From assembly GCA_902766965.1 (NCBI GenBank), contig CACXFJ010000081.1, forward strand, positions 4,332 through 68,331: a DNA stretch of 64,000 bases. Direction: 5' to 3'. The DNA comes from an uncultured Eubacteriales bacterium. Its GTDB lineage: Bacteria > Bacillota > Clostridia > Christensenellales > DTU072. Both the position numbers and the translations under genes were made by a program. Shown piece by piece: positions 29,998 through 43,789 of this stretch. The notes under the pieces are model-generated. The model worked only from the letters and a program-made list of their open reading frames with translations. It did not search any database and had not been told where the DNA came from. The first letter of the stretch is position 1. Each line of letters opens with the position of its first letter.

Positions 29998-30018
29998 ATT
30001 GATAAAGGAGATATGAAT

Positions 30019-31056: not shown

Positions 31057-31800
31057 ATGAAAGAATTTGTTAATACCGAAAAAGAGCTTCAGGACAAAAT
31101 CGACGTAGAAAAGTGGCTAAAAAGCGAAAAAGCGGGCAGAGACCTTTGCGGAGAGGAAGATTTTTGCTCCTATTGCGACAAAAAGGAAGAATATCCTTGC
31201 GGACACGCTTGTCTTGTTTGCGAAAACAATAAGAACAGGAAAGAAGCGGCGGCTACGGTAAAAAGCGACGACGATAAAGCCGAGACCGAAAAAAAGGTCG
31301 TAGAAGTAGAAGGATACGAAAAGGTGATACGCCTTACGAGAAGTTTTGCTTCCCGTCTTATTCAGGACGAGAATTTGCAAAAGAATTATTCCGCCGTTAA
31401 AAATACTTTTGAGAAATACAAAAAGGTCAAAGGCAGAGTATCGTTCTCCGCGGAAACGTACAGGGCAGGCAGAGAAAAACTTGCCGTAGTAGCGGTAAGG
31501 GGTAAGTCTCTTTATATATACCTTGCCTTAAATCCCGTAGAGCTCGAAGACAGCAAGTACCGTTTTACCGACGAGAGCGACAGAGCTTCTTACGTAAGCA
31601 CTCCCGTTAAGGTTAAGATTACCGGTTCCCGCTCGTTGAAACACGCGTGCGAACTTATAGATATTCTTGCCGAAAAGAAAGAACTTGTCCTTAACGAAAA
31701 GTACGAGCCTACCGAATACGTCACCGAATATCTTACCGATAAAGAGCTTATCGAAAAAGGTCTTATAAAAGAACGAACGGTTCTTGTGAAAAAGAAATAA
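31057..31800 (+). CDS. hypothetical protein with Cys-rich N-terminus
   Basis: 247 aa with six Cys in residues 31-55 (CGEEDFCSYC...CGHACLVC) and a basic C-terminal domain. A terminator follows at 31859-31882. Confidence 0.6.
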   Translation: MKEFVNTEKELQDKIDVEKWLKSEKAGRDLCGEEDFCSYCDKKEEYPCGHACLVCENNKNRKEAAATVKSDDDKAETEKKVVEVEGYEKVIRLTRSFASRLIQDENLQKNYSAVKNTFEKYKKVKGRVSFSAETYRAGREKLAVVAVRGKSLYIYLALNPVELEDSKYRFTDESDRASYVSTPVKVKITGSRSLKHACELIDILAEKKELVLNEKYEPTEYVTEYLTDKELIEKGLIKERTVLVKKK

Positions 31801-31858
31801 AACCGATAAGAAATATCGATATTTTTTATCGAATAACCTATCGAAAAAACCGAAAAAA

Positions 31859-31882
31859 ACGTCGCCGTCGGGCGGCGTTTTT
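31859..31882 (+). terminator. intrinsic terminator after ORF 31057-31800
   Basis: Stem ACGTCGCC/GGCGGCGT, loop GTCG, then TTTTT. Confidence 0.8.
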
Positions 31883-31936: not shown

Positions 31937-31966
31937 TTGTTTTTTTCTTTATAGCTATGCTATAAT
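31937..31966 (+). promoter_or_regulatory. candidate promoter of the fumC-hdr-flx-frd operon (TTGTTT-18-TGcTATAAT)
   Basis: Hexamers at 31937-31942 and 31961-31966, with an extended -10 TG. Confidence 0.5.
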
Positions 31967-32057
31967 ATCATAGATACTGCGGGGGGAGTATCTCCCGCAA
32001 AAAACAACGAAACGAAAAAACCAAGAAATCACATAAAAATCAAGGAGGCTATTTTTT

Positions 32058-33434
32058 ATGGAATACCGTATCGAAAAAGACACCATGGGCGAGATGAAAG
32101 TTCCTGCCGACAAATATTGGGCGGCGCAAACCGAAAGAAGCCACGAAAACTTCCAAATAGGCGGAGAAGTTATGCCGAGAGAAATAACTTACGCTTTCGG
32201 AATTTTGAAAAAAGCGGCTGCTATCGCCAACTTTAATCTCGGCAAACTCCCGAAGGAAAAACTCGATATAATAAGCGAAGTTTGCGACGAAGTAATCGCC
32301 GGCAAACTTTACGAACACTTCCCCCTCGTCGTATGGCAGACCGGTAGCGGAACGCAGTCCAACATGAACGCCAACGAAGTCATCGCAAACCGCGGTAACG
32401 AAATCGCCGGCAAAAAACTTCTTCACCCCAACGACGATATTAACAAGAGTCAGTCCAGTAACGATACTTTCCCGACCGCTATGCACATAGCCGCGGTACT
32501 CACCATAGAAGATAAACTTCTTCCCGCTATCGATAAACTCATCGCTACTTTCAAGCGTCTCGAAAAAGAGAACGAGGGTATCGTCAAGTGCGGCAGAACT
32601 CACCTTCAGGACGCAGTGCCTATCGGATTTTCTCAGGAAATCAGCGGTTGGCGTAACATGCTCGAAAAATCGAGAAGTCAGATAGTCCTTTCTCTCGACG
32701 GATTGAGAGAACTCGCCCTCGGCGGCACCGCCGTAGGTACCGGACTTAACGCTCCTATCGGTTTTGCCGAAGACGTAGCAAAACAGGTATCCGAAATCAC
32801 CGGCAAACACTTCGTGACCGCCGAAAACAAATACCACGCTCTTACCTCAAAAGACGAATTGGTATTCGCTCACGGCGCATTGAAAGGACTCGCCGCCAAC
32901 CTTATGAAGATAGCCAACGACGTAAGATGGCTCGCTTCCGGTCCCCGCGACGGTCTCGGCGAAATCTTTATCCCCGAAAACGAACCCGGCAGCTCAATTA
33001 TGCCCGGTAAAGTCAACCCCACTCAGTGCGAATCCATGACCATGGTTGCGGTTCAGGTAATCTCCAACGACGTAGCGGTAGGCTTCGGCGCTTCGCAGGG
33101 TAACTTCGAACTCAACGTGTTCATGCCCGTTATTATCTACAACTTCCTCCAGTCCGTTCGTTTGCTCGCGGACGGTATGGTTTCTTTCGAAAAGAATTGC
33201 GTGACCGGAATCAGAGCCAACAAAGAAAAGATGGACTACAATTTGCAACATTCTCTTATGCTCGTGACCGCGCTTAATCCCTATATCGGATACGAGAACG
33301 CAGCGAAGACCGCAAAGAAAGCATACAAAGACAATATTACTTTGAAGCAGGCTTGCGTCGAATTAGGCTTCCTTACCGCCGAAAAATTCGACGAAGTATT
33401 CCATCCGGAAGAAATGATTTATCAGAAAAAGTAA
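32058..33434 (+). CDS. fumC: class II fumarate hydratase
   Basis: 458 aa with the [15 protein letters not shown] signature. Confidence 0.95.
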
Positions 33435-33450
33435 TCGGAGGAAAAGGTAA

Positions 33451-34230
33451 ATGAAATTCAGTTACTATCCCGGCTGTACGTTAAAGACGCAAGCGAAAGA
33501 CCTTGACAGATACGCGAGGCTTTCCGCCGCCGCGCTCGGGGTGGATATGGAAGAAATAAAAGAGTGGCAGTGCTGCGGAGCGGTTTATCCTCTCGCCAAA
33601 GACGAGATAGGGGTAAAACTGTCCGCCGTACGCGCCCTCGATTACGCAAAGCACGAAGACGGGCTTTTGCTTACTCTCTGTTCCGCCTGCCATAACGTAA
33701 TTAAAAGGGTAAACGACGATATGCGTAACGACGCCGATATAAATTTGAGAGCAAACAATTATCTTGCGCTCGACGAAAAGTATAACGGCGAAACGAAAGT
33801 CGTGCATTATCTCGAAATGTTGAGAGACTACGTCGGTTTCGACAATATAAAGAAAGCGGTAAAAAATCCGATTAAAAAGAAAATCGGCGCGTACTACGGC
33901 TGCCTTCTTCTTCGTCCCGGCAAGGTAATGGCTTTCGACAATCCCGAAAATCCCACTATTATAGAAGATTTTATTACGGCTATCGGCGGCACGCCCGTAA
34001 AATATCCGTTCAGAAACGAATGTTGCGGCGCGTACGTCAAGTTGGTTAATCCCGACCTCACCGAAAGAAAGAGTAAAAAAGTGTTGGAAAACGCAAAGGA
34101 AAACGGCGCGGAAATCGTAATCACCGCTTGTCCTCTTTGTTACTACAACTTAAAACAAACCCCGTGCGAAGATATGGAAGTGGTTTATTTTACCGAACTT
34201 TTGGCGGAAGCTTTGGGCGTGAAGGACTAA
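33451..34230 (+). CDS. hdrB: heterodisulfide-reductase subunit B-like protein (two CCG domains)
   Basis: Two CX31-39CCX34-36CXXC patterns: YYPGC...QCCGA...CSAC and YYGC...ECCGA...CPLC. Confidence 0.9.
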   Translation: MKFSYYPGCTLKTQAKDLDRYARLSAAALGVDMEEIKEWQCCGAVYPLAKDEIGVKLSAVRALDYAKHEDGLLLTLCSACHNVIKRVNDDMRNDADINLRANNYLALDEKYNGETKVVHYLEMLRDYVGFDNIKKAVKNPIKKKIGAYYGCLLLRPGKVMAFDNPENPTIIEDFITAIGGTPVKYPFRNECCGAYVKLVNPDLTERKSKKVLENAKENGAEIVITACPLCYYNLKQTPCEDMEVVYFTELLAEALGVKD

Positions 34231-34240
34231 GGAGGCACTA

Positions 34241-34627
34241 ATGTCAGATATTTTTACGGTAGAAAACATTAAGAGAATCTCCGGCACGGACGTAAGAAAG
34301 TGCATGAAGTGCGGCAAGTGTTCGGGCAGATGCCCCGCTTTCGACGATATGGATATAAAACCGCACCAGTTCGTCACGATGCTCGGTCAGGGAAGAGTGG
34401 AAGAACTCCTTTCTTCCAAAGCCATATTCAATTGTCTGAGCTGTATGGCTTGCGTGGAGCGTTGCCCCAGAGGCGTAGCCCCCGCAAACGTAATCGAAGC
34501 GGTACGCGACACCGTCGAAAGAATGCAGGGCGGCGACGCTATAAAGGCGGAAGATATACCCGCTATCGTGGACGAGCTTATCCCGCAGCAGCTTTTGATG
34601 TCGGCGTTCAGAAAATACAAGAAATAG
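34241..34627 (+). CDS. hdrC: heterodisulfide-reductase subunit C-like 2x[4Fe-4S] protein
   Basis: CMKCGKCSGRCP and CLSCMACVERCP motifs, 128 aa. Confidence 0.88.
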   Translation: MSDIFTVENIKRISGTDVRKCMKCGKCSGRCPAFDDMDIKPHQFVTMLGQGRVEELLSSKAIFNCLSCMACVERCPRGVAPANVIEAVRDTVERMQGGDAIKAEDIPAIVDELIPQQLLMSAFRKYKK

Positions 34628-34643
34628 AGGATAAAGATAGATT

Positions 34644-36635
34644 ATGCAGAGAATAGGCGTATTTATATGTCATTGCGGCAGCAACATAGCCGCCACGGTA
34701 GACGTGGAGAGAGTGACGGAAGCTCTCGCCAAAGAACCGGGCGTAGTGTATGCCGTCAATTATCAGTATATGTGCTCGGAGAACGGACAACAGCTCATAA
34801 AGAACGCTATTGCCGAACATAGACTTACCGGAATAGTGGTATGTTCCTGTTCGCCGAGAATGCACGAAGCTACTTTCCGCAAAACCGCAGAAGCCGCCGG
34901 GCTTAACGCTTATATGGTGGAAATCGCCAATATAAGAGAACAATGCAGTTGGATACATAAGGATATAGAAGAAGCTACCGAAAAGGCAATAGTTCTTGCC
35001 CGTACGGCGGTAGCGAAAATTCTTTTGGACAAGCCGCTTACCGCGGGAGAAACGGGAGTTACTAAGAGAGCTTTGGTAATAGGCGGCGGAATAGCCGGTA
35101 TTCAGGCGGCTCTCGATATAGCGGACGCGGGATACGAAGTGGACATCGTGGAAAAGAGACCGACGATAGGCGGCCGTATGGCGCAGCTCGACAAGACCTT
35201 CCCGACGCTCGACTGTTCCGCTTGTATTCTTACCCCGAAAATGGTCGATTGCGCGCAGAGCGACAAAATCAACATTTTCTCGTACAGCGAAGTGGAAGAA
35301 GTCAAAGGCTTCGTGGGTAACTTCGACGTCAAGATAAGAAAGAAAGCTCGTCACGTAGACGAAACGAAATGTACCGGTTGCGGCGTGTGTATGGCAAGCT
35401 GCCCGTCCAAGAAAGGACTTAACGAGTTCAATATGAACCTTAATAATCGCCCCGCCATTTACATTCCGTTCGCGCAGGCTATCCCGAACGTGGCTATTAT
35501 AGACCCCGAACAGTGTCTCAAACTTAAATCGGACAAGTGCGGACTTTGCCAAAGAAAATGCGGCGTGGGAGCAATAGACTACAAACAGGAAGACAGTTTC
35601 GTGGAAAGAAAGTACGGTGCTATCGTGGTAGCTACCGGTTTCCGTCCCATAAAATTAGACAACTTTAACGAATTCGGTTACGCCGATAACAAGGACGTCG
35701 TCACGAGTCTGGAACTCGAAAGACTTATGAACGCGGCGGGACCGACGAAGGGAACTTTACTCCGTCCGAGTGACGGCAAGCACCCGAAGGTAATCACTTT
35801 CATTCAGTGCGTAGGTTCCCGCGACGTATCGGGCTGCGGCAAGCCGTATTGCAGTAAGATTTGCTGTATGTACACCGCTAAGCACGCAATGCTTATTAGA
35901 GAAAAATATCCCGATACCGAAGTTCACGTGTTCTATATAGATATCCGTACCCCCGGGAAAAACTACGACGAATTCTATCGCAGAGCGGTGGAACAGTACG
36001 GAGTGGACTATATTAAAGGTATGGTCGGTAAAGTTTATAACGAGAACGGAAAACTTATGGTTCAGGGAAGCGACCTTCTCGACAACAAGCAGATAGTAAT
36101 TCCTTCCGACTTGGTTGTACTCGCCACGGCGATAGAACCCGATCCGTCGGTAAGAGACATAGCGACAAAACTTACCATATCCATAGATACCAACGACTTC
36201 CTCACCGAAGCGCACGCAAAACTTCGTCCGGTAGAAAGCCCGACGGCGGGCGTGTTCCTTGCCGGCGTATGCCAAGGACCCAAGGACGTACCGGAGACGG
36301 TTTCTCAAGCGTCGGCTTGCGCCTCCAAGGTAATAGGACTTCTCGCCAAAGACAAACTTAAAGGCAATCCCTGCGTATCTCACGTCGACGAAAATATGTG
36401 TACCGGTTGCAGCCAGTGCGAACAGGTATGCCCCTACGGAGCGATTACTTATATCGATAAGGAATTCCGTATCGGCGGCGGCAAGACCGAAACGAGAAGA
36501 GTGGCGAGCGTCAATCCCGCTGTATGTCAGGGTTGCGGCGCGTGTACCGTCACTTGCCCGTCGGGAGCTATGGACTTATACGGATTCAGTTCCGCGCAGA
36601 TACTTAAGGAGGTAGAAGCGATATGCAAGAGATAA
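34644..36635 (+). CDS. hdrA: heterodisulfide-reductase subunit A-like FAD/FeS flavoprotein
   Basis: GGGIAG FAD motif and the HdrA-specific CVGSRD...CSKICCMY cluster motif. It also has inserted and C-terminal ferredoxin motifs (CTGCGVCMASCP, CTGCSQCEQVCP, CQGCGACTVTCP). Confidence 0.92.
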   Translation: MQRIGVFICHCGSNIAATVDVERVTEALAKEPGVVYAVNYQYMCSENGQQLIKNAIAEHRLTGIVVCSCSPRMHEATFRKTAEAAGLNAYMVEIANIREQCSWIHKDIEEATEKAIVLARTAVAKILLDKPLTAGETGVTKRALVIGGGIAGIQAALDIADAGYEVDIVEKRPTIGGRMAQLDKTFPTLDCSACILTPKMVDCAQSDKINIFSYSEVEEVKGFVGNFDVKIRKKARHVDETKCTGCGVCMASCPSKKGLNEFNMNLNNRPAIYIPFAQAIPNVAIIDPEQCLKLKSDKCGLCQRKCGVGAIDYKQEDSFVERKYGAIVVATGFRPIKLDNFNEFGYADNKDVVTSLELERLMNAAGPTKGTLLRPSDGKHPKVITFIQCVGSRDVSGCGKPYCSKICCMYTAKHAMLIREKYPDTEVHVFYIDIRTPGKNYDEFYRRAVEQYGVDYIKGMVGKVYNENGKLMVQGSDLLDNKQIVIPSDLVVLATAIEPDPSVRDIATKLTISIDTNDFLTEAHAKLRPVESPTAGVFLAGVCQGPKDVPETVSQASACASKVIGLLAKDKLKGNPCVSHVDENMCTGCSQCEQVCPYGAITYIDKEFRIGGGKTETRRVASVNPAVCQGCGACTVTCPSGAMDLYGFSSAQILKEVEAICKR

Positions 36636-37063
36636 CCACTACGCATAAACCTTTAATAGTTGCGTTTTGTTGCAACTGGTGTAGCTACGCCGGCGCGGAT
36701 TTGGCGGGGTCTTCGAGACTTTCCTATCCTGCGGAAGTTAAGATAATAAGAGTTCCTTGTTCGTGCAGAGTAAACCCCATTTTCGTGTTGAAAGCCTTTC
36801 AAAGGGGAGCGGACGGCGTAATACTTTGCGGTTGCCACCCCGGCGACTGCCATTACTCGACCGGCAACTATCATACGAGAAGAAGAATGGCTCTTATGTT
36901 CTCGATGCTCAATTATTTCGGAATAGAGAAAGAAAGGACGAGAATAGAATGGGTATCCGCAGCCGAAGGCGCAAAGTTTTCGCAGGTTATGAACGACTTT
37001 GCAAAAACCATTAACGAACTCGGCGAAAACCGCAGATTGGAGGATTTGAGATGCAAAAAATAG
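36623..37063 (+). CDS. mvhD: MvhD/FlxD-like hydrogenase iron-sulfur (delta) subunit
   Basis: CCNWCSY...PCSC...CGCHPGDCHY pattern. The start overlaps the hdrA stop by 13 nt. Confidence 0.9.
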   Translation: MQEITTTHKPLIVAFCCNWCSYAGADLAGSSRLSYPAEVKIIRVPCSCRVNPIFVLKAFQRGADGVILCGCHPGDCHYSTGNYHTRRRMALMFSMLNYFGIEKERTRIEWVSAAEGAKFSQVMNDFAKTINELGENRRLEDLRCKK

Positions 37064-38025
37064 AAGAACTTATGTATAAAAGAGCCTCCGAGATGCTCGA
37101 AAGCGGAGAAGTTGACAGAGTAATAGCCTGGAAGAAGGGCGAAACCTGTTACGACGTTTCTCCCGCTACTTTTACGAAAGACAATCTCGAAGGGTTTGTT
37201 TACGACGCTTTCTGCGGAGCTAATTTATCGAAATATCTCGTAGAAGAAAGCAAAAAAGGCGGAAAGATACTCGTGTTTTTGAAACCGTGCGACACTTACA
37301 GCTTTAATCAGCTTTTGTCCGAACACAGAATAAAACGCGAAAACGTTTACGTCATCGGCATCGAGTGTCAGGGAAAAATCGACGCCAACAAACTGCAAAA
37401 GAAAGGAATAGACGGAATTTTATCCGTGGAAGAAAAGGGCGACAAACTTACCGTAAAGACTCTTTACGGCGACAAAGAAATAGCTTTCGAAGAGGCTTTG
37501 TCCGTCAAGTGCGAAACCTGCAAGAGTAAAGAGTTTGCCGTAAGCGACGAAACCATCGTCCTCAACGAAATGCGCGACAATAGAGAAAAGCGTTTCGAAG
37601 CGGTGGAAAGACTGGAAAAGATGACGGAAGAAGAACGCTACGCTTTCTGGCAAGCGGAACTTTCCAAATGTATCCGCTGTAACGCCTGCCGTAACGTATG
37701 TCCCGCCTGCACCTGCACGCATTGCGTGTTCGACAACGACAAGTCGGGGATAGCCGGCAAAGCCAACGCGGACAGCTTCGAAGAAAAACTCTTCCACATT
37801 ATCCGCTCCTATCACGTCGCGGGCAGATGCACCGACTGCGGAGAATGTTCGAGAGTGTGTCCGCAAAACATACCTTTGCACCTTATTAACAGAAAGTACA
37901 TAAAGGATATGAACGAGTTTTACGGCGAATATCAGGCGGGAGCTGCCGTGACCGCCCTTAACCCCATCGTCGACTTTACCAAAGAAGACGTGGAAGCCGC
38001 TACCGTGGTGGGAGGTAAAAAATGA
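37051..38025 (+). CDS. 4Fe-4S polyferredoxin-like protein (FlxC-like)
   Basis: CIRCNACRNVCPAC and CTDCGECSRVCPQ motifs. The start overlaps the mvhD stop by 13 nt. Confidence 0.75.
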   Translation: MQKIEELMYKRASEMLESGEVDRVIAWKKGETCYDVSPATFTKDNLEGFVYDAFCGANLSKYLVEESKKGGKILVFLKPCDTYSFNQLLSEHRIKRENVYVIGIECQGKIDANKLQKKGIDGILSVEEKGDKLTVKTLYGDKEIAFEEALSVKCETCKSKEFAVSDETIVLNEMRDNREKRFEAVERLEKMTEEERYAFWQAELSKCIRCNACRNVCPACTCTHCVFDNDKSGIAGKANADSFEEKLFHIIRSYHVAGRCTDCGECSRVCPQNIPLHLINRKYIKDMNEFYGEYQAGAAVTALNPIVDFTKEDVEAATVVGGKK

Positions 38026-39047
38026 TTAAAATAAAAGTTTCTTTATTAGACGACCTTTATAAAAAGATTGCCGAAACGTATCCTCTCTATCTTCCCGTCG
38101 AAGTAGCGGGCGAAGTAAACTACGGCAAGTATAATTCGGACAGCAAGGTAAGACTCGACGTATTGAAGACCGTTAAGTCCCCTAAGGACGCTTTTTTCCC
38201 GCAGAGCGAAAACCTTGTCAAGTTCAAAGTGGACGGACAGAAAATCGAAGTAATCGACGTAAGAGAGGAAGCGAAACCGTTTGTGGTTATGGGCGTGAGA
38301 GCCTGCGACTATAAAGCGTTCGACGTACTCGACAGAGTGTTTTTGGTAGACCCGCTCGACACTTACTATCAGACGAAGAGAGAAGCCGGTATAGTCATTA
38401 CCGCGGCTTGCGGACGCCCCGACGAAACCTGTTTCTGCACGGTGTTCGGGATAGACCCGACCGACCCTAAGGGCGACGTGACCACCTGGCTTGTCGACGG
38501 ATACCTTTACTGGAGAGCTAATACAGCTAAGGGCGAAGAACTTACGAAAGCCGTTTCTTCCTTAGCCGAAGAGACCGACGGAAAGGCTGTGGACAAGCAA
38601 AAAGAAGAAGTCAAGAAAATACTTAAAAAACTTCCCAACGCCGATATAAAGCCCGAAGTTTTCGACGAAAACATGCTCGACCTCTTCCACGACAAGAAGT
38701 GGCAAAAACTCTCGGAGGCTTGTTTGGGGTGCGGAACTTGTACTTTCGTATGCCCGACCTGCCAATGTTTTGACATTAAAGAGTTTATAACGAACGACGG
38801 CGTAAACCGTTTCCGCTGCTGGGACAGCTGTATGTACAAGGACTTCACGAAGACCGCGGGCGGACAGCCGAGACCTACCCAAATGCAACGTTTCCGTCAG
38901 AGATTTATGCACAAGCTCGTGTACTATCCGAAAAACAACGGCGGATTGTACAGCTGCGTAGGTTGCGGCAGATGCGTGAAAAAATGTCCGCAACATCTCA
39001 ACATAGTCAAAGTAATCAAAGCCTTCGGAGGTGACGACAATGAATAA
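38022..39047 (+). CDS. 4Fe-4S protein of the HydB/AsrA/FlxB type
   Basis: CLGCGTCTFVCPTCQC and CVGCGRCVKKCPQ motifs. ATGA overlap with the upstream gene. Confidence 0.78.
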   Translation: MIKIKVSLLDDLYKKIAETYPLYLPVEVAGEVNYGKYNSDSKVRLDVLKTVKSPKDAFFPQSENLVKFKVDGQKIEVIDVREEAKPFVVMGVRACDYKAFDVLDRVFLVDPLDTYYQTKREAGIVITAACGRPDETCFCTVFGIDPTDPKGDVTTWLVDGYLYWRANTAKGEELTKAVSSLAEETDGKAVDKQKEEVKKILKKLPNADIKPEVFDENMLDLFHDKKWQKLSEACLGCGTCTFVCPTCQCFDIKEFITNDGVNRFRCWDSCMYKDFTKTAGGQPRPTQMQRFRQRFMHKLVYYPKNNGGLYSCVGCGRCVKKCPQHLNIVKVIKAFGGDDNE

Positions 39048-39870
39048 AATCGAAGCGTTAATTCCGACCGTGGCGGTCATCACCGACGTCCGTAAGGATA
39101 CCCCCGACGTAAAGACGTTCAGAGTGGTTACGCCCGAAGGAAAGAAACCGTTTGAACACAAACCGGGACAGTGCGCAATGCTATCTATTCCCGGCGTAGG
39201 CGAAGCTCTTTTTTCCATAACGAGTTCTCCTACGAACACCGAATATCTCGAATTTTCCATTAAGAAATGCGGTTGCGTGACCGAAATGCTCCACATGCTG
39301 GAACCCGGTCAGCAAATTACCGTTCGCGGACCGTACGGAAGAAGTTTTCCCGTGGACACCGTGTTTAAGGGAAAGAATTTACTGTTTATCGCCGGCGGTA
39401 TCGGTTTGGCTCCGTTAAGAAGCGTAATAAACTACGTCAGAGACAAACGCGGCGACTACGGCAAAGTGGTAATAGTCTACGGCGCGAGAAGCGCGGACGA
39501 CCTCGTCGACTACGAAGAAATCACTAAAGAGTGGGTAAACGAACCCGACTTCGACGTGCGTCTTACCATCGACAGACCGCAGGAAGGCTGGGACGGACAC
39601 GTCGGTTTCGTGCCTACCTACGCGAAGGAACTCAATATCGACAACACTTACACCGCAGTCCTTTGCGGACCGCCTATAATGATTAAGTTCACTTTGCAGG
39701 GACTTCTGGAACAAGGTTTCGAAAAGAAGAACATCTACACCACGCTGGAACTTCGTATGAAGTGCGGCATAGGAAAATGCGGCCGTTGCAACGTGGGCGA
39801 CAAGTACGTCTGTAAAGACGGTCCCGTGTTCTGCATGACGGAACTGGACGAACTGCCCGACGAATATTAA
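39031..39870 (+). CDS. FAD/NAD(P)-binding oxidoreductase with C-terminal 2Fe-2S site (HydG/AsrB/PyrK/FlxA type)
   Basis: Ferredoxin-reductase-type fold (LLFIAGGIGLAPLRS) and a C-terminal CGIGKCGRC motif. It overlaps the upstream gene by 17 nt. Confidence 0.85.
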   Translation: MTTMNKIEALIPTVAVITDVRKDTPDVKTFRVVTPEGKKPFEHKPGQCAMLSIPGVGEALFSITSSPTNTEYLEFSIKKCGCVTEMLHMLEPGQQITVRGPYGRSFPVDTVFKGKNLLFIAGGIGLAPLRSVINYVRDKRGDYGKVVIVYGARSADDLVDYEEITKEWVNEPDFDVRLTIDRPQEGWDGHVGFVPTYAKELNIDNTYTAVLCGPPIMIKFTLQGLLEQGFEKKNIYTTLELRMKCGIGKCGRCNVGDKYVCKDGPVFCMTELDELPDEY

Positions 39871-39901
39871 AAACAAAGTTATTAAAAGGAGTTTTTGTTT
39901 T

Positions 39902-40573
39902 ATGGAAACAGTTAATATATACTTATTCGGAAAAAAATACACCGTACCCGAAGAACTCACCATAATGAAAGCTATGGAGTACTGCGGATACCAACTTATA
40001 AGAGGCTGCGGCTGCCGTAACGGTTTTTGCGGAGCGTGCGCCACGATTTACAGAATAAAAGGGCAGATGGAATTAAAGACCTGCCTTGCTTGTCAGACCA
40101 AGGTCGAAGAGGGAATGTACGTAGCCACTCTTCCCTTCTTCCCCCTCGTAAAACAGGTTTACGACATAGAGAAGATTTCGCCCGAACAGGCAATCATGAT
40201 GCAACTTTATCCCGAAATCTATTCCTGCATAGGTTGCAACGCCTGCACGAAGGCTTGTCCGCAACAGCTTAAAGTTATGCAGTACATAGCCTACGCGCAG
40301 AGAGGAGAATTCGACAAGTGCGCCGAAGAATCTTTCGACTGTGTAATGTGCGGAATATGTTCTTCCCGTTGTCCCGCGGGCATCTCTCATCCGCAGGTAG
40401 CTTTGCTCGCCCGCAGACTTACCGGTAAATATATCGCGCCTAAGTCCGAACATTTGGAAGAGAGAGTCAAAGAAATAGCCGAGGGCAAGTACGAAAAGAT
40501 AATAGAAGACCTTATGCAGAAGCCGCTTGCGGAACTGAAAGAACTCTATAACCACAGAGAAATCGAGAAATAG
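39902..40573 (+). CDS. succinate dehydrogenase/fumarate reductase iron-sulfur subunit-like protein
   Basis: N-terminal 2Fe-2S pattern CRNGFCGACA...CLAC, plus CIGCNACTKACP and CVMCGICSSRCP. 223 aa. Confidence 0.8.
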   Translation: METVNIYLFGKKYTVPEELTIMKAMEYCGYQLIRGCGCRNGFCGACATIYRIKGQMELKTCLACQTKVEEGMYVATLPFFPLVKQVYDIEKISPEQAIMMQLYPEIYSCIGCNACTKACPQQLKVMQYIAYAQRGEFDKCAEESFDCVMCGICSSRCPAGISHPQVALLARRLTGKYIAPKSEHLEERVKEIAEGKYEKIIEDLMQKPLAELKELYNHREIEK

Positions 40574-40584
40574 GAGGGGCAACA

Positions 40585-42192
40585 ATGTATAATTACACGC
40601 AAGAACAACTCGAATCGATGAAGAAAGTCGAAGCGACCCGTAAGGACCGCGTCGGCAAAGAATTAAGACGTATGACCGCCGACGAGAAAGACGCCCTTCT
40701 CAAAAAGTTCCACCCGGACTACATAGAAAGCGCGTACGAAACCTTACAGGTCGGCGTAAACAAGGGAGACAAAGTCCTTCACGAACTCGCCGGACTCTTA
40801 CAGGGTAAGTCGAGAGTGCTCGACATGGATATCGACCTTAACAAGGTAGACTACGACGTAGACGTGCTTATAATAGGGGGCGGCGGAGCAGGCTGCTCGG
40901 CGGCAATAGAAGCCGACAATAAGGGAGCAAAGACTATGATAGTCACCAAGCTCCGTATGGGCGACGCCAACACGATGATGGCGGAAGGCGGAATTCAAGC
41001 CGCCGACAAACCCAACGATTCGCCGGCCATCCACTATATCGACGCTTTGGGCGGCGGACACTTCACCAACAAACCCGAACTTTTGAGAAAGCTCGTTTGC
41101 GAAGCTCCCGAAGCTATCGAATGGCTCAACGAACTCGGCGTTATGTTCGACAAAGCCCCCGACGGAACTATGATTACCACTCACGGCGGCGGCACGAGCA
41201 GAAAGAGAATGCACGCTTGCCGCGACTATTCGGGAGCGGAAATAATGAGAGTTCTTCGCGACGAAGTTCTTAACAGACAGGGGATAACGATAGTCGATTT
41301 CGCCCCCGCGATAGAACTTATCAAAGACTCCGAAGGCAAAGCAGCGGGAGCGGTTCTTATGAATCTCGAAACGAAAGAAATTCTCGTAGCGAGAGCAAAG
41401 ACCGTCATTATAGCGACGGGCGGCGCGGGAAGACTTCATTATCAGGGATTCCCGACGAGCAACCATTACGGAGCTACCGCCGACGGATTAGTTCTTGCTT
41501 ACAGAGCGGGAGCCAAACTTCTTTACGAAGACACTTTGCAGTATCACCCGACGGGAGCCGCTTGCCCCACTCAGATTTTCGGCGCGCTCGTTACCGAAAA
41601 GGTTCGTTCCTTGGGAGCGCAGCTCATCAACAAGGAAGGCGAAGCCTTTATGAACCCGTTGGAAACCCGCGACGTGTCAGCGTCTTCCATAATAAGAGAA
41701 TGTAAAGAAAGACGCAACGGCGTAAAGACCACCGACGGCGAAGGCGTATGGCTCGACACCCCGATGATAGAAATTTTGGGCGGGGAAGGAACCATCGAAA
41801 AGAGAATCCCGGCTATGATGAGAATGTTCGGTAAATACGGTATCGATATAAGGAAAGAACCTATTTTGGTTTATCCTACCTTACACTATCAGAACGGCGG
41901 TATCGAAATAGGCGCAAACGGTATGACCAACATAGAAAACCTCTACGTCGCGGGAGAAGCCGTAGGAGGAATTCACGGTCGTAACAGACTTATGGGCAAC
42001 AGCCTTTTGGACATCATAGTATTCGGTCGTAACGCCGGTCGAAACGCAGGGGAGAAGTGCAAGACCGTAGAAGTAAAAGACCTTACGTTAAGCCACGTCG
42101 AGGCGTTCGATAAAGAACTTCACGACGCAGGGATAGAGCCTACGGAGCTTTCTCCGAGAATTCTTCCCGATTACAGAAGAAAAGATATGTAA
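40585..42192 (+). CDS. fumarate reductase/succinate dehydrogenase flavoprotein-like FAD protein (soluble type)
   Basis: GGGGAG FAD motif, HPTG, TEKVRSLGA (Arg in the position of the proton donor), HYQNGG and GIHGRNRLMGNSL. There is no His at the covalent-FAD position (GDANTMMAEGG), and there is an ~85-aa N-terminal extension. Confidence 0.8.
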   Translation: MYNYTQEQLESMKKVEATRKDRVGKELRRMTADEKDALLKKFHPDYIESAYETLQVGVNKGDKVLHELAGLLQGKSRVLDMDIDLNKVDYDVDVLIIGGGGAGCSAAIEADNKGAKTMIVTKLRMGDANTMMAEGGIQAADKPNDSPAIHYIDALGGGHFTNKPELLRKLVCEAPEAIEWLNELGVMFDKAPDGTMITTHGGGTSRKRMHACRDYSGAEIMRVLRDEVLNRQGITIVDFAPAIELIKDSEGKAAGAVLMNLETKEILVARAKTVIIATGGAGRLHYQGFPTSNHYGATADGLVLAYRAGAKLLYEDTLQYHPTGAACPTQIFGALVTEKVRSLGAQLINKEGEAFMNPLETRDVSASSIIRECKERRNGVKTTDGEGVWLDTPMIEILGGEGTIEKRIPAMMRMFGKYGIDIRKEPILVYPTLHYQNGGIEIGANGMTNIENLYVAGEAVGGIHGRNRLMGNSLLDIIVFGRNAGRNAGEKCKTVEVKDLTLSHVEAFDKELHDAGIEPTELSPRILPDYRRKDM

Positions 42193-42244
42193 TGATTTAG
42201 GGGGCGGATTTTTTCCGTCCCCCGAATAATATTCAGGAGTAATA

Positions 42245-43687
42245 ATGGGAACAGACAACACACAGAAAAAAAACCTTAAATGGGTTTGGATAGCTCTCGC
42301 CGCGGTAATTGCGGCGGGTATAATCGCGTGGTGTATCTATTGCGCTACGCAGGCTAAGGGGATATCGGGGATATTCAAATTCTCCACGTCGAAAGTTAAA
42401 CTCGGCACGGACGTCGACGGCAACGTAATCGCGCCGACTTATTCGGTAATAGCTTTGCTTTCGGGTATATTCATTATAGCCACTCTCGGTTATCTTCTCG
42501 GAAGCATAACCATAAAAGGCGTGTCTTTGGGGACGGCGGGCGTATTCCTCGTGGCTATTCTTTACGGATATTTATGCACCCTTATCCCTGCCGATTTACC
42601 CATCATAGGGGCGTTCGGTATTAAGAATTCTTCCGCGCTTATGTACAATATGTACGGGTCTGTCGTTCAGAACATAGGTCTCGTGCTGTTCGTGGCGGCG
42701 GTAGGTTTTATCGCGGGACCGAGCTTTTTCAGAAACTTCAAAAAGAACGCTAAGTCCTACGTCGTTCTCGGACTTATAATTATCCTTTCGGGAGCCGTAC
42801 TTTCCGTTCTGTTTGCGATTATCCCCGGAATAGGTTCCGACTTCTCGGCAGGTATCCTTTCGGGCGCTCTCACTTCTACCCCCGGTTTTTCCGCGGCGCA
42901 GGAAGCGGCAAGGTCGAGCGGCGGCAGCGTGGACCTGGTTACTCTCGGGTACGCGATAGCTTATCCGTTCGGAGTAATAGGCGTGGTTCTGTTCGTTCAG
43001 CTTATGCCTAAGTTCCTTAAAGCCGATATGGAAAAGGAAAGAGCCTTACTCAAAGTCGGTATGGGCGAAAAGGTGGAAAGAAAGGAAGGACTCTTCCGCT
43101 GCGACAGCTTCGGACTTATGCCGTTCAGCCTGGCGGTCGTGCTCGGTCTTATTTTAGGCTCCATAAACATTCCGCTTACCGGCAAAGGTTATAACGGAAC
43201 CTGCTTCTCGTTGGGCAACACCGGCGGCGTTCTTATCATGTGCCTTATTATGGGTCACTTCGGACGCATCGGAAAAATGTCCATGGAAGTCAACGAAAAA
43301 ACCTCGAAAGTTTTCCGCGAATTCGGACTTATGCTCTTCCTTATGGGCGCCGGCGTTTCCGGCGGCGTGAGCCTCGTGTCGGAAATCAGTAAGTCGAGTT
43401 TGGGTGCCATGCTCGTATTATATGGGTTCCTTGGCGGAGCTTTGATGACCTTGGCGCCGATGATTGCGGGTTACTTCTTCGCAAGATACGTATTGAAATT
43501 GCCGATGCTCAACATATTAGGGTCGATAACGGGGGGTATGACGTCCACTCCCGCGCTCGGCACGCTCATTAACGTGGCGGGAACCGACGACGTAGCTTCC
43601 GCGTACGCTTCCACTTATCCCGTGGCTCTCGTACTCGTAGTGCTTGCGTCGCAGTTTATAATTACCCTTTTGCCCGCGGCGGTATAA
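42245..43687 (+). CDS. AAE-family (AspT/YidE/YbjL/SucE-like) transporter
   Basis: 480 aa with two homologous 5-6 TM halves joined by a short hydrophilic linker. A terminator follows at 43715-43744. Confidence 0.75.
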   Translation: MGTDNTQKKNLKWVWIALAAVIAAGIIAWCIYCATQAKGISGIFKFSTSKVKLGTDVDGNVIAPTYSVIALLSGIFIIATLGYLLGSITIKGVSLGTAGVFLVAILYGYLCTLIPADLPIIGAFGIKNSSALMYNMYGSVVQNIGLVLFVAAVGFIAGPSFFRNFKKNAKSYVVLGLIIILSGAVLSVLFAIIPGIGSDFSAGILSGALTSTPGFSAAQEAARSSGGSVDLVTLGYAIAYPFGVIGVVLFVQLMPKFLKADMEKERALLKVGMGEKVERKEGLFRCDSFGLMPFSLAVVLGLILGSINIPLTGKGYNGTCFSLGNTGGVLIMCLIMGHFGRIGKMSMEVNEKTSKVFREFGLMLFLMGAGVSGGVSLVSEISKSSLGAMLVLYGFLGGALMTLAPMIAGYFFARYVLKLPMLNILGSITGGMTSTPALGTLINVAGTDDVASAYASTYPVALVLVVLASQFIITLLPAAV

Positions 43688-43714
43688 AGGTAATTCCGAC
43701 GAAAAAAGACTAAT

Positions 43715-43744
43715 AAAAGCGTCGCGGTAATTTGTGACGCTTTT
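43715..43744 (+). terminator. intrinsic terminator after the AAE transporter (end of the fum-hdr-frd operon)
   Basis: Stem AGCGTC/GACGCT followed by TTTTGTT. Confidence 0.7.
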
Positions 43745-43789
43745 GTTAAATAACGTATAGTAGATTAAAGAAAACGGGATAATGGTTTT

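What the first reader, a model, noticed from the sequence alone, without database searches (positions are those of the whole stretch)
32058..43687. fumC-hdrBCA-mvhD-flx-like-frdBA-like-AAE transporter operon: candidate electron-bifurcating soluble fumarate reductase
Seen in sequence: eleven co-directional genes lie between a promoter-like element (31937-31966) and a terminator (43715-43744). Four stop/start overlaps (36623/36635, 37051/37063, 38022/38025, 39031/39047) imply one translationally coupled unit. The content is as follows.
- Class II fumarase.
- HdrB-like protein with two complete CCG motifs.
- HdrC-like 2x[4Fe-4S] protein.
- HdrA-like flavoprotein with the CVGSRD...CSKICC cluster motif.
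- MvhD-like protein.
- Two polyferredoxin-like proteins.
- A PyrK/HydG/AsrB-like FAD/NAD(P)-binding protein ending in CGIGKCGRC.
- An SdhB/FrdB-like FeS protein and an SdhA/FrdA-like flavoprotein.
- An AspT/YidE/SucE-family transporter.
No membrane anchor (FrdCD/SdhCD) and no quinone-related gene is present.
Established knowledge: FlxABCD-HdrABC is a proposed NADH-dependent flavin-based bifurcating complex in Desulfovibrio, with DsrC as the proposed acceptor. MvhADG-HdrABC bifurcates in methanogens. Methanogen thiol:fumarate reductase TfrAB joins a fumarate-reductase flavoprotein to Hdr-type CCG domains. The fumarate/succinate couple (about +30 mV) is thermodynamically suited as the high-potential acceptor of a bifurcation. 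SucE of the AAE family exports succinate.
Inference: this operon could encode a cytoplasmic NAD(P)H-dependent fumarate reductase that bifurcates electrons to fumarate and ferredoxin. Fumarase would supply fumarate from malate and the transporter would export succinate or import a C4-dicarboxylate. I am not aware of a characterised Hdr/Flx-coupled fumarate reductase in bacteria.
Basis: partly seen in the sequence, partly recalled or inferred. Interest (0 to 1): 0.8.

Follow-up and report, generated by a model that had tools for sequence, protein, structure and literature searches.

The report
Flx-Hdr-linked soluble fumarate reductase operon
This gut Clostridia operon joins a fumarase, an NADH-oxidising Flx-Hdr electron-splitting module, a membrane-free fumarate reductase and a transporter; it probably makes succinate while also producing reduced ferredoxin, an idea already published for the same operon in another bacterium but never tested biochemically.

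Summary
Eleven co-directional, tightly packed genes lie at 32058-43687: fumC, hdrB, hdrC, hdrA, mvhD/flxD, flxC, flxB, flxA, frdB-like, frdA-like and an AAE transporter. An upstream terminator plus promoter-like site and a strong downstream hairpin bound them.

- The flavoprotein sits nearest TfrA- and Sdh/Frd-type proteins, not NadB. It keeps the dicarboxylate-site residues and lacks the covalent-FAD histidine.
- In 80 gut Clostridia species-representative genomes, every locus keeps the gene order as far as its contig reaches (54 reach fumC).
- A 47%-identical sister clade pairs the same FrdAB module with a NuoF-like NADH module, often next to TCA-cycle genes.

The idea is not new. The same ten-gene core is the published, co-regulated 'succinate operon' of Pseudoclostridium thermosuccinogenes (2019 preprint; PMC7282089). 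A tfrAB/flx-hdr link was also proposed for gammaproteobacterial reverse-TCA clusters (PMC6315080). I found no biochemical proof in the library.

Verdict: a new member of a known, still hypothetical kind. It is a good experimental target because cultured Eubacterium coprostanoligenes carries it.

The parts
31855..31882 (+). Intrinsic terminator of the preceding gene. It marks the upstream boundary of the unit.
   Evidence: 12-bp GC-rich stem followed by a T-run. Folding gives -18.3 kcal/mol, z = -2.7.
31937..31966 (+). Promoter-like site: -35 TTGTTT, an 18-nt spacer, then an extended -10 TGcTATAAT.
   Evidence: Read directly from the sequence. It falls below the consensus-scan threshold because the -35 matches only 3 of 6.
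32058..33434 (+). fumC, class II fumarate hydratase (458 aa), preceded by the ribosome-binding site AAGGAGG at 32042-32048.
   Evidence: TIGR00979 scores 732 bits, above its 664.75 cutoff. Pfam finds Lyase_1 and FumaraseC_C.
33451..34230 (+). HdrB-like protein (259 aa) with two complete CCG motifs, the ligands of the two non-cubane [4Fe-4S] clusters.
   Evidence: PF02754 matches twice. It scores 127 bits on SdhE and 126 bits on HdrB. Its alignment to 8rvv_B / 5odc_B keeps all 10 Cys.
34241..34627 (+). HdrC-like 2x[4Fe-4S] protein (128 aa).
   Evidence: Matches Fer4_8 and Fer4_17. TIGR03290 HdrC gives E = 3e-16.
34644..36635 (+). HdrA (663 aa), a full-length bifurcation-type flavoprotein with its N-terminal, inserted and C-terminal ferredoxin domains.
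   Evidence: 687 bits, residues 3-660 aligned to 5-649 of 5odc_A. The HdrA2 model scores 792 bits.
36623..37063 (+). MvhD/FlxD-like [2Fe-2S] connector protein (146 aa).
   Evidence: PF02662 scores 188 bits over the full model length.
37051..38025 (+). FlxC-like FeS protein (324 aa).
   Evidence: Fer4 dicluster at residues 203-274. Its C-terminal region is paralogous to FlxB-like.
38022..39047 (+). FlxB-like FeS protein (341 aa), HydB/ShyB/AsrA-like.
   Evidence: Fer4_22 scores 107 bits. ShyB gives E = 7e-56 and AsrA gives E = 2e-42.
39031..39870 (+). FlxA-like NAD(P)H-binding flavoprotein with a C-terminal [2Fe-2S] site. The true start is probably ATG 39040.
   Evidence: Pfam finds FAD_binding_6, NAD_binding_1 and DHODB_Fe-S_bind. 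HydG and AsrB models match at E around 1e-60. Other assemblies call a 276-aa product.
39902..40573 (+). FrdB-like FeS subunit (223 aa): an N-terminal [2Fe-2S] domain plus two full CxxCxxCxxxCP motifs.
   Evidence: Matches Fer2_4 and Fer4_7. The TfrB N-terminus matches at E = 3e-11. It is fused to FrdA in P0123.
40585..42192 (+). FrdA-like flavoprotein (535 aa). It has non-covalent FAD, a roughly 90-aa N-terminal extension and no Succ_DH_flav_C domain.
   Evidence: FAD_binding_2 scores 240 bits. TfrA is the best model at 353 bits, below its 718 cutoff. Active-site alignment. Structure model and Foldseek match to FrdA.
42245..43687 (+). AAE-family (AspT/YidE/YbjL) transporter (480 aa), the candidate succinate exporter or C4-dicarboxylate exchanger.
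   Evidence: Asp-Al_Ex matches twice (212 bits). TIGR01625 scores 160 bits, above its 72 cutoff. It lies downstream of frdA in 48 of 80 relatives.
43711..43748 (+). Terminator hairpin that ends the unit.
   Evidence: 17-bp stem, -21.5 kcal/mol, z = -5.9, with 0 of 200 shuffles folding as well.

Best explanation
The operon encodes the last steps of a fermentative reductive branch: malate to fumarate to succinate, followed by export. Reduction is carried out by a quinone-independent, cytoplasmic multi-subunit enzyme.

Proposed path (inferred):
1. FlxA oxidises NAD(P)H through its FAD and [2Fe-2S] centre.
2. Electrons pass through the FeS clusters of FlxB and FlxC to FlxD/MvhD, and from there to the bifurcating FAD of HdrA.
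3. One electron takes the high-potential branch: HdrC, then the HdrB non-cubane clusters, then the FrdB-like clusters, then the non-covalent FAD of FrdA, where fumarate is reduced.
4. The other electron leaves through the ferredoxin domains of HdrA to reduce ferredoxin.

Overall reaction: 2 NADH + fumarate + oxidised ferredoxin -> 2 NAD+ + succinate + reduced ferredoxin.

The reduced ferredoxin can then drive Rnf or a hydrogenase. This would give a quinone-free fermenter an energy yield from fumarate reduction. FumC supplies fumarate and the AAE protein moves succinate or a C4-dicarboxylate.

Shown here: gene content, cofactor-binding motifs, active-site residues, synteny, and co-expression in an organism with the same operon layout.
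Inferred: physical association of FrdAB with Hdr, NADH as the donor, and ferredoxin reduction.
For: Fumarate as substrate:
- FrdA keeps the FrdA/SdhA catalytic set. In the alignments to 7d6v_A and 1nek_A these are QYHPTG His321, Thr337-Glu338, Arg362, His434 and Arg468.
- The covalent-FAD histidine is replaced by Asn (GDANTMMAEGG versus GKAHTVMAEGG). From established knowledge of E. coli FrdA His44 variants, this favours fumarate reduction over succinate oxidation.
- Foldseek's top hit is E. coli FrdA (1kf6_A, E = 2e-25).
- TfrA is the best NCBIfam model. The full-length non-clade relatives classified are TfrA or Sdh/Frd type, and none passes NadB.
- fumC is the first gene of the unit.
- ATP-PEPCK follows frdA in some relatives.
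- A 47%-identical sister clade places the same FrdB-FrdA pair next to KorA-like 2-oxoacid:ferredoxin oxidoreductase in 18 loci, and to aconitase or malate dehydrogenase in 7 each.

Coupling to Flx-Hdr:
- The order fumC-hdrBCA-mvhD-flxCBA-frdBA is unchanged in all 80 related species-representative loci as far as each contig reaches. 54 reach fumC.
- Four gene overlaps run across hdrA to flxA.
- In P. thermosuccinogenes a cluster with the same order and gene lengths is expressed at thousands of FPKM and changes together about 4-fold.

Bifurcation capacity:
- HdrA is full length with all its ferredoxin domains.
- HdrB has both CCG sites.
- The sister clade manages with a single NuoF-like NADH module in 40 of 53 loci. 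A seven-subunit Flx-Hdr input is therefore not needed for simple NADH:fumarate reduction.

Precedent for an Frd/CCG junction:
- The TfrB model is matched colinearly by three separate window proteins: FrdB-like (model positions 19-101), HdrC-like (125-217) and HdrB-like (354-487).
- HdrB-like scores as well on SdhE of type-E fumarate reductase as on HdrB.
Against: - No biochemical data exist for this operon type in the literature I could search.
- Flx-Hdr itself has, to my knowledge, never been shown in vitro to bifurcate. This was not checked here.
- FrdB-like has no CCG domain. How HdrB's disulfide-reducing site would pass electrons to it is unknown.
- A thiol or disulfide intermediate cannot be excluded.
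- NADH versus NADPH specificity is not determined.
- The AlphaFold model is only moderate (pLDDT 71), and no multimer prediction was possible.
- I could not fetch the P. thermosuccinogenes protein sequences. Correspondence with that operon rests on gene order and gene lengths only.
Confidence: 0.55

Rival explanations
1. Two enzymes are linked by a diffusible thiol. Flx-Hdr would bifurcate from NADH to ferredoxin and to an unknown disulfide, either a small thiol or a DsrC-like protein. FrdAB would then act as a thiol:fumarate reductase, as TfrAB does in methanogens.
For: - HdrB keeps both CCG sites, which in methanogens reduce a heterodisulfide.
- TfrA is the best family model for FrdA.
- PMC7282089 describes Flx-Hdr as passing electrons to ferredoxin 'and thiols'.
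- PMC11636981 mentions a DsrC-like carrier as one option.
Against: - The FrdB-like protein lacks the CCG domain that oxidises thiols in TfrB.
- The only CCG protein in the unit is HdrB.
- No DsrC/TusE-like or thiol-biosynthesis gene lies in the operon.
- The sister clade runs the same FrdAB pair from a NuoF-like module, with no CCG protein encoded beside it.
Confidence: 0.15
2. The complex is a non-bifurcating NAD(P)H:fumarate oxidoreductase. The Flx-Hdr subunits would serve only as an elaborate electron wire, and no ferredoxin would be reduced.
For: - Soluble NADH-dependent fumarate reductases exist, for example the five-subunit Hydrogenobacter thermophilus enzyme and the Klebsiella enzyme, as cited in PMC13147460.
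- NADH to fumarate is strongly exergonic on its own.
Against: - HdrA retains the full bifurcation architecture, including both ferredoxin domains.
- The sister clade shows that a single NuoF-like subunit is the usual neighbour of this FrdAB pair. Keeping seven extra, highly conserved subunits suggests an added function.
Confidence: 0.15
3. The system runs in reverse as a confurcating succinate dehydrogenase: succinate + reduced ferredoxin + 2 NAD+ -> fumarate + 2 NADH. It would serve succinate or propionate oxidation.
For: - Flavin-based bifurcating enzymes are reversible in principle.
- fumC and a C4-dicarboxylate transporter would also suit succinate uptake and oxidation.
Against: - The covalent-FAD histidine is absent. 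From established knowledge, this disfavours succinate oxidation.
- The operon occurs in fermentative gut Clostridia and in the succinate producer P. thermosuccinogenes, where it is highly expressed during succinate formation.
- PEPCK is adjacent in some relatives.
Confidence: 0.05
4. The FrdAB-like pair acts on a substrate other than fumarate, such as L-aspartate, another enoate or another dicarboxylate.
For: - The protein is below every curated NCBIfam cutoff.
- It has an unusual N-terminal extension and lacks the Sdh/Frd C-terminal domain.
- NadB models score only slightly lower than Sdh/Frd models.
- Two short non-clade relatives score about equally on NadB and TfrA.
Against: - fumC is co-transcribed with it, and TCA-cycle enzymes flank the sister clade.
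- It has an FeS partner, which NadB lacks.
- The full fumarate/succinate catalytic residue set is conserved.
- No non-clade relative classified passes the NadB cutoff.
Confidence: 0.07

Closest known systems
'Succinate operon' of Pseudoclostridium thermosuccinogenes, CDQ83_RS03365-RS03315 (Koendjbiharie & van Kranenburg 2019 preprint; PMC7282089)
   Same: - Same order: fumC, hdrB, hdrC, then five overlapping genes (hdrA-mvhD-flxCBA), then frdB and frdA.
- Near-identical gene lengths (P. thermosuccinogenes / window): 1365/1377, 783/780, 324/387, 5347/5227, 675/672 and 1602/1608 nt.
- The same hypothesis, a ferredoxin-reducing fumarate reductase, was proposed for it.
   Different: - The last gene there is only 249 nt, a small hypothetical protein, not a 480-aa AAE transporter.
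- That organism is a thermophile; the window comes from a gut Clostridia lineage.
- Protein-level orthology could not be checked because the sequences were not retrievable.
tfrAB / flxABCD-hdrABC / korABCD reverse-TCA clusters of tubeworm symbionts and Thioflavicoccus mobilis (PMC6315080, PMC11636981, PMC13147460)
   Same: - A soluble two-subunit fumarate reductase sits next to Flx-Hdr genes.
- The authors propose NADH-driven bifurcation to fumarate and ferredoxin.
   Different: - The setting is autotrophic rTCA in Gammaproteobacteria.
- The genes are interspersed with korABCD and aclAB.
- tfrAB expression differed from the rest of that cluster.
- There is no fumC-first, translationally coupled unit and no transporter.
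- Sequence relatedness to the window's FrdAB was not tested.
FlxABCD-HdrABC of Desulfovibrio vulgaris (Ramos et al. 2015, cited)
   Same: All seven subunit types are present with the expected cofactor motifs.
   Different: - The gene order differs (hdrBCA-flxDCBA here).
- There is no DsrC or alcohol dehydrogenase context.
- The proposed high-potential acceptor here is fumarate through FrdAB rather than a protein disulfide.
MvhAGD-HdrABC of methanogens (PDB 5odc, 8rvu)
   Same: HdrA (687 bits, full length), HdrB, HdrC and MvhD are clear homologues.
   Different: - The electron donor module is FlxABC (NAD(P)H) instead of the MvhAG hydrogenase.
- There is no CoM-S-S-CoB metabolism.
Thiol:fumarate reductase TfrAB of Methanothermobacter
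   Same: - TfrA is the best-scoring model for FrdA.
- The TfrB model is covered colinearly by FrdB-like, HdrC-like and HdrB-like.
- Non-covalent FAD is suggested here by the His-to-Asn change. That TfrA also binds FAD non-covalently is my recollection, not checked.
   Different: - FrdA scores 353 bits against a 718-bit cutoff.
- The CCG module is on a separate protein (HdrB).
- FrdA has an N-terminal extension and lacks the TfrA C-terminal region.
frdB-frdA-nuoF-like module found here in environmental Gammaproteobacteria MAGs and related contigs (L087-L161)
   Same: - It has the same FrdB-like/FrdA-like pair (about 47% and 32% identity) with the same N-terminal extension.
- It sits in a dicarboxylate / TCA context.
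   Different: - NADH input is a single NuoF-like protein (Complex1_51K + NADH_4Fe-4S).
- It has no Hdr, Flx, fumC or transporter genes.
Five-subunit soluble NADH-dependent fumarate reductase of Hydrogenobacter thermophilus (Miura et al. 2008, as summarised in PMC13147460)
   Same: It is a cytoplasmic, NADH-dependent, multi-subunit fumarate reductase whose A subunit is homologous to FrdA.
   Different: - It is reported as a plain NADH:fumarate reductase.
- Its subunit genes are scattered in the genome (my recollection of the original paper).
- The primary paper was not available, so subunit homology to Hdr or Flx was not checked.

Membership tests
FlxABCD-HdrABC NADH dehydrogenase / heterodisulfide reductase | Full-length HdrA with a FAD domain and ferredoxin domains. 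| tested here: met
   687 bits. Residues 3-660 align to 5-649 of 5odc_A, with the Cys motifs conserved.
FlxABCD-HdrABC NADH dehydrogenase / heterodisulfide reductase | HdrB with two CCG motifs, and HdrC with 2x[4Fe-4S]. | tested here: met
   PF02754 matches twice. The alignment to 8rvv_B keeps all Cys. The HdrC model gives E = 3e-16.
FlxABCD-HdrABC NADH dehydrogenase / heterodisulfide reductase | FlxA (FAD/NAD(P)-binding with [2Fe-2S]), FlxB and FlxC (HydB-like FeS proteins) and FlxD (MvhD-like). | tested here: met
   Pfam and NCBIfam hits. FlxB/FlxC paralogy.
FlxABCD-HdrABC NADH dehydrogenase / heterodisulfide reductase | A thiol/disulfide (DsrC-type) high-potential acceptor. | tested here: not met
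   No DsrC-like gene lies in the unit. FrdAB occupies the conserved adjacent position instead. The actual acceptor cannot be tested in silico.
P. thermosuccinogenes-type 'succinate operon' | The order fumC - hdrBC - hdrA/mvhD/flxCBA - frdBA as one co-regulated unit. | tested here: met
   Order and gene lengths match the supplementary table of PMC7282089. The five overlapping genes are merged into one transcript unit there.
P. thermosuccinogenes-type 'succinate operon' | A small terminal hypothetical gene (249 nt). | tested here: not met
   The window has a 480-aa AAE transporter instead. 19 of 80 relatives carry a 92-118-aa three-TM protein at that position.
P. thermosuccinogenes-type 'succinate operon' | Protein-level orthology to CDQ83_RS03320 and RS03325. 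| not testable with these tools
   The sequences were not retrievable. The single genome-contig scan returned only relatives of 75% identity or more.
Thiol:fumarate reductase TfrAB | TfrA equivalog score. | tested here: not met
   353 bits against a 718-bit cutoff. Only model positions 6-422 of 546 are matched.
Thiol:fumarate reductase TfrAB | TfrB as a fusion of an FrdB-like part with CCG domains. | tested here: not met
   FrdB-like (223 aa) has no CCG domain. The CCG domains lie on the separate HdrB-like protein.
Membrane-bound quinol:fumarate reductase / succinate dehydrogenase (complex II) | Membrane anchor subunits (FrdCD/SdhCD). | tested here: not met
   None is present in the operon.
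Membrane-bound quinol:fumarate reductase / succinate dehydrogenase (complex II) | The covalent-FAD histidine and the Succ_DH_flav_C domain. | tested here: not met
   His is replaced by Asn in GDANTMMAEGG. PF02910 gives no hit.
Membrane-bound quinol:fumarate reductase / succinate dehydrogenase (complex II) | The catalytic dicarboxylate-site residues (two His, two Arg, Thr-Glu). | tested here: met
   They are conserved in the alignments to 7d6v_A and 1nek_A.
L-aspartate oxidase (NadB) | NadB equivalog score and a stand-alone flavoprotein. | tested here: not met
   277 bits against a 452.75-bit cutoff. The protein is paired with, and in P0123 fused to, an FeS subunit. No relative classified passes NadB.
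Class II fumarate hydratase | TIGR00979 equivalog score. | tested here: met
   732 bits against a 664.75-bit cutoff.
AAE (AspT/YidE/SucE) transporter family | Duplicated Asp-Al_Ex / YidE_YbjL membrane domain. | tested here: met
   PF06826 matches twice (212 bits). TIGR01625 scores 160 bits, above its 72 cutoff.
AAE (AspT/YidE/SucE) transporter family | Succinate as the transported substrate. | not testable with these tools
   This is inferred from context only. All equivalog models score below cutoff.

The most novel reading that the evidence does not exclude
The nine redox proteins form one Flx-Hdr-Frd supercomplex. In it, the non-cubane clusters of HdrB pass electrons directly to FrdB with no thiol intermediate. 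Fumarate would then be the high-potential acceptor of an Hdr-type flavin-based bifurcation. This enzyme would be the main, energy-conserving route to succinate in hundreds of quinone-free gut Clostridia species. A sister lineage would use the same FrdAB catalytic module with a simple NuoF-like NADH input.
Probability: 0.45. Interest if true: 0.75.

Novelty: new member of a known kind. Interest (0 to 1): 0.5.

Why it matters
If the mechanism holds, it would be the first demonstrated bacterial Hdr-type bifurcating enzyme with an organic, non-thiol terminal acceptor.

It would also explain how fermentative Firmicutes gain energy from fumarate reduction, through reduced ferredoxin feeding Rnf or a hydrogenase. 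The operon itself has no membrane anchor, and these organisms are presumed, though not checked here, to lack quinones.

The scan shows the operon is common rather than a curiosity of one thermophile:
- The hosts include Christensenellaceae, Candidatus Scatosoma, Oscillospiraceae and the cultured Eubacterium coprostanoligenes ATCC 51222.

It therefore bears on succinate and hydrogen budgets in animal guts, and on engineering succinate production. The idea is already in print, so the value of this finding lies in extending its distribution and pointing to a tractable test organism, not in discovery.

Tried and rejected
- Rfam scan of the whole window: no RNA family at gathering score. No known riboswitch lies upstream of fumC. 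The 5'-UTR hairpin at 31978-31999 is not significant (z = -1.7).
Direct reading and folding were used instead.
- Literature: I looked for a biochemical characterisation with several term sets and in two candidate papers. I found only proposals.
- Papers not held: the 2019 preprint and Miura et al. 2008. Subunit details of the H. thermophilus enzyme were therefore not verified.
- Physiology of E. coprostanoligenes: a search for succinate production returned nothing usable.
- Structure: the AlphaFold2 model of FrdA came from a shallow alignment (78% identity or more) and gave only pLDDT 71. It was good enough for fold assignment but not for interpreting the N-terminal extension.
- NadB assignment: considered and rejected.
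- Membrane-bound complex II assignment: considered and rejected.
- The small protein that replaces AAE in some relatives has only a sub-threshold PQ-loop hit (E = 0.014). I do not assign it to that family.

Full report
**Observation**

The window carries eleven co-directional ORFs at exactly the reported coordinates. Four stop/start overlaps link hdrA through flxA. All other gaps are 10-52 nt.

Family scans confirm each assignment:
- Class II fumarase: TIGR00979 scores 732 bits, above its cutoff.
- HdrB-like protein with two CCG domains.
- HdrC-like dicluster protein.
- 663-aa HdrA.
- MvhD/FlxD.
- Two HydB-type FeS proteins (FlxC-like and FlxB-like), which share their C-terminal dicluster region.
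- HydG/AsrB-type FAD/NAD(P) protein with a C-terminal [2Fe-2S] motif (FlxA-like).
- 223-aa FeS protein with a [2Fe-2S] domain and two full CxxCxxCxxxCP motifs (FrdB-like).
- 535-aa FAD_binding_2 flavoprotein (FrdA-like).
- AAE-family transporter.

The unit is bounded as follows:
- Upstream, the preceding gene ends in a terminator at 31855-31882. A site follows with a perfect extended -10 but a weak -35.
- Downstream, a 17-bp hairpin lies at 43711-43748 (-21.5 kcal/mol, z = -5.9).
- No Rfam family lies in the window.

Minor corrections:
- flxA probably starts at 39040.
- FrdB-like is only weakly SdhB-like by sequence.
- The AAE protein is short, with no central domain hits.

**What the catalytic pair is**

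FrdA-like aligns to Sdh/Frd flavoproteins with the full dicarboxylate-site residue set: QYHPTG, Thr-Glu, the proton-donor Arg, HYxxGG and the second Arg. The histidine that carries covalent FAD is an asparagine.

- It lacks the Succ_DH_flav_C domain and has a roughly 90-residue N-terminal extension.
- Its best curated model is TfrA (353 bits, below cutoff), ahead of Sdh/Frd (283) and NadB (277).
- An AlphaFold2 model (pLDDT 71, pTM 0.77) matches E. coli FrdA best.
- In an exhaustive search of 1.8 billion cluster representatives, relatives that share the N-terminal extension reach only 42-56% identity.
- I classified eight of the next-nearest relatives outside this clade (39-43% identity). The six full-length ones score best as TfrA or actinobacterial Sdh/Frd type, and two pass those cutoffs. 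Two ~410-aa proteins score about equally on NadB and TfrA, below both cutoffs. None passes NadB.
- One relative is a natural FrdB-FrdA fusion.

**Conservation**

The best 80 are 75-88% identical. They are gut or rumen Clostridia: Christensenellaceae, Candidatus Scatosoma, Oscillospiraceae and the isolate Eubacterium coprostanoligenes ATCC 51222.

Every locus keeps fumC-hdrB-hdrC-hdrA-mvhD-flxC-flxB-flxA-frdB-frdA in the same order as far as its contig reaches. 54 of the 80 reach fumC.

The gene after frdA varies:
- The AAE transporter in 48 loci.
- A 92-118-aa three-helix membrane protein in 19 loci.
- ATP-PEPCK directly after frdA or after the small protein in four loci.

This non-homologous replacement by another membrane protein, together with the PEPCK linkage, fits a PEP-to-succinate branch that ends in export.

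**A sister clade**

A clade about 47% identical occurs in environmental contigs, with members annotated as Gammaproteobacteria MAGs. A 44%-identical relative is annotated in Prochlorococcus sp. MIT 1201.

- It keeps the frdB-frdA pair and the N-terminal extension.
- It has no hdr, flx or fumC genes.
- A NuoF-like protein (Complex1_51K + NADH_4Fe-4S) follows frdA in 40 of 53 loci with enough downstream sequence.
- A KorA-like 2-oxoacid:ferredoxin oxidoreductase is present in 18 loci, and aconitase or malate dehydrogenase in 7 each.

Two conclusions follow. First, this FrdAB clade works on the fumarate/succinate couple in two unrelated genomic settings. Second, a single NADH module is its usual neighbour elsewhere, so the seven-subunit Flx-Hdr input in Clostridia probably adds a function. 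The obvious candidate is ferredoxin reduction.

**Bifurcation capacity**

- HdrA aligns end to end with the structurally characterised bifurcating HdrA (687 bits to 5odc_A). This includes the N-terminal, inserted and C-terminal ferredoxin domains.
- HdrB keeps all ten CCG cysteines.
- The TfrB model is hit colinearly by FrdB-like, HdrC-like and HdrB-like.
- HdrB-like scores equally on SdhE, the CCG subunit of type-E fumarate reductases.

An Frd/CCG-protein junction therefore has natural precedents.

**Mechanism proposed (inferred)**

NAD(P)H feeds FlxA, then FlxB/C, then FlxD, then the FAD of HdrA. From there one electron goes through HdrC, HdrB and FrdB to FrdA and fumarate. The other goes through the HdrA ferredoxin domains to ferredoxin.

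**Literature**

The hypothesis is already published.

- PMC7282089 describes the P. thermosuccinogenes 'succinate operon': fumarate hydratase, a seven-gene Flx-Hdr set, a two-gene fumarate reductase and a small hypothetical gene.
  - Its supplementary table gives gene lengths and an order that match the window for the first ten genes. It also shows high, co-varying expression.
- PMC6315080 noted tfrAB and korABCD interspersed with flxABCD-hdrABC in gammaproteobacterial rTCA clusters and proposed a shared complex.
- PMC11636981 (2024) and PMC13147460 (2026) repeat this as a suggestion.
- None of my searches found a biochemical demonstration.

**Verdict**

- The system is a new member of a known, still hypothetical kind.
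- My additions are:
  - its wide distribution in gut Clostridia, including a cultured strain;
  - the alternative terminal membrane protein;
  - the PEPCK linkage;
  - the NuoF-linked sister clade, which supports both the substrate assignment and the argument for bifurcation.
- I put 0.55 on the bifurcating mechanism. Higher confidence, about 0.85, applies to the narrower claim that this is a soluble, quinone-independent fumarate reductase operon.

Noticed in passing
L087-L161 (for example L092:9366-12891 and L101:5893-15191): A sister clade of the FrdB/FrdA pair (about 47% identity, same N-terminal extension) lies in a frdB-frdA-nuoF-like arrangement. It is often followed by a KorA-like 2-oxoacid:ferredoxin oxidoreductase and lies near aconitase, malate dehydrogenase and citrate synthase. 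Cluster members are annotated as Gammaproteobacteria MAGs, and a 44%-identical relative is annotated in Prochlorococcus sp. MIT 1201. This looks like an undescribed three-subunit soluble NADH:fumarate reductase.
   Followed up: partly
L004:11618-11974, L057:11668-11946, L068:11612-11926 and 16 other loci: In 19 of 80 relatives the AAE transporter is replaced, at the same position after frdA, by a conserved 92-118-aa three-helix membrane protein. Its only family signal is a sub-threshold PQ-loop hit (E = 0.014). The 249-nt last gene of the P. thermosuccinogenes operon is probably the same thing.
   Followed up: partly
L057:11979-12224, L068:11966-12205, L077:12619-12858: A 79-81-aa ORF lies shortly downstream of the small membrane protein in the E. 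coprostanoligenes-like group. The L068 copy hits thioredoxin-like [2Fe-2S] ferredoxin (PF01257, E = 8e-8), and the other two are visibly similar. It might be a redox partner.
   Followed up: no
L017:11836-13446, L021:11675-13288, L027:12121-13731, L035:11766-13379: ATP-dependent PEP carboxykinase lies directly downstream of frdA or of the small membrane protein. This links the operon to the PEP-oxaloacetate-malate-fumarate-succinate branch.
   Followed up: yes
P0123 (727 aa, NCBI-sourced, 7.7-kb contig): A natural fusion of the FrdB-like and FrdA-like proteins (38% and 54% identity to the window proteins).
   Followed up: partly
window 24899-28167: An anaerobic ribonucleotide reductase NrdD carries an N-terminal ATP-cone and a C-terminal glutaredoxin/thioredoxin-like domain. 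A thioredoxin-reductase-like flavoprotein overlaps its stop codon. This could be a dedicated reductant supply for NrdD.
   Followed up: no
window 21497-23260, 28420-29997, 30013-30855, 31057-31800, 47325-48908, 48910-50172: Six sizeable ORFs (247-587 aa) have no Pfam hit. The three also scanned against NCBIfam (28420-29997, 30013-30855, 31057-31800) had no hit there either. Two of them lie just upstream of the operon.
   Followed up: no
window 7156-12774: A very large ORF (1872 aa) on the + strand was not examined.
   Followed up: no
window 31978-31999: A GC-rich 8-bp hairpin (GCGGGGGG...CCCCCGC-like) lies in the 5' leader between the promoter-like site and fumC. It is not statistically distinct from shuffles (z = -1.7) and matches no Rfam family.
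   Followed up: partly
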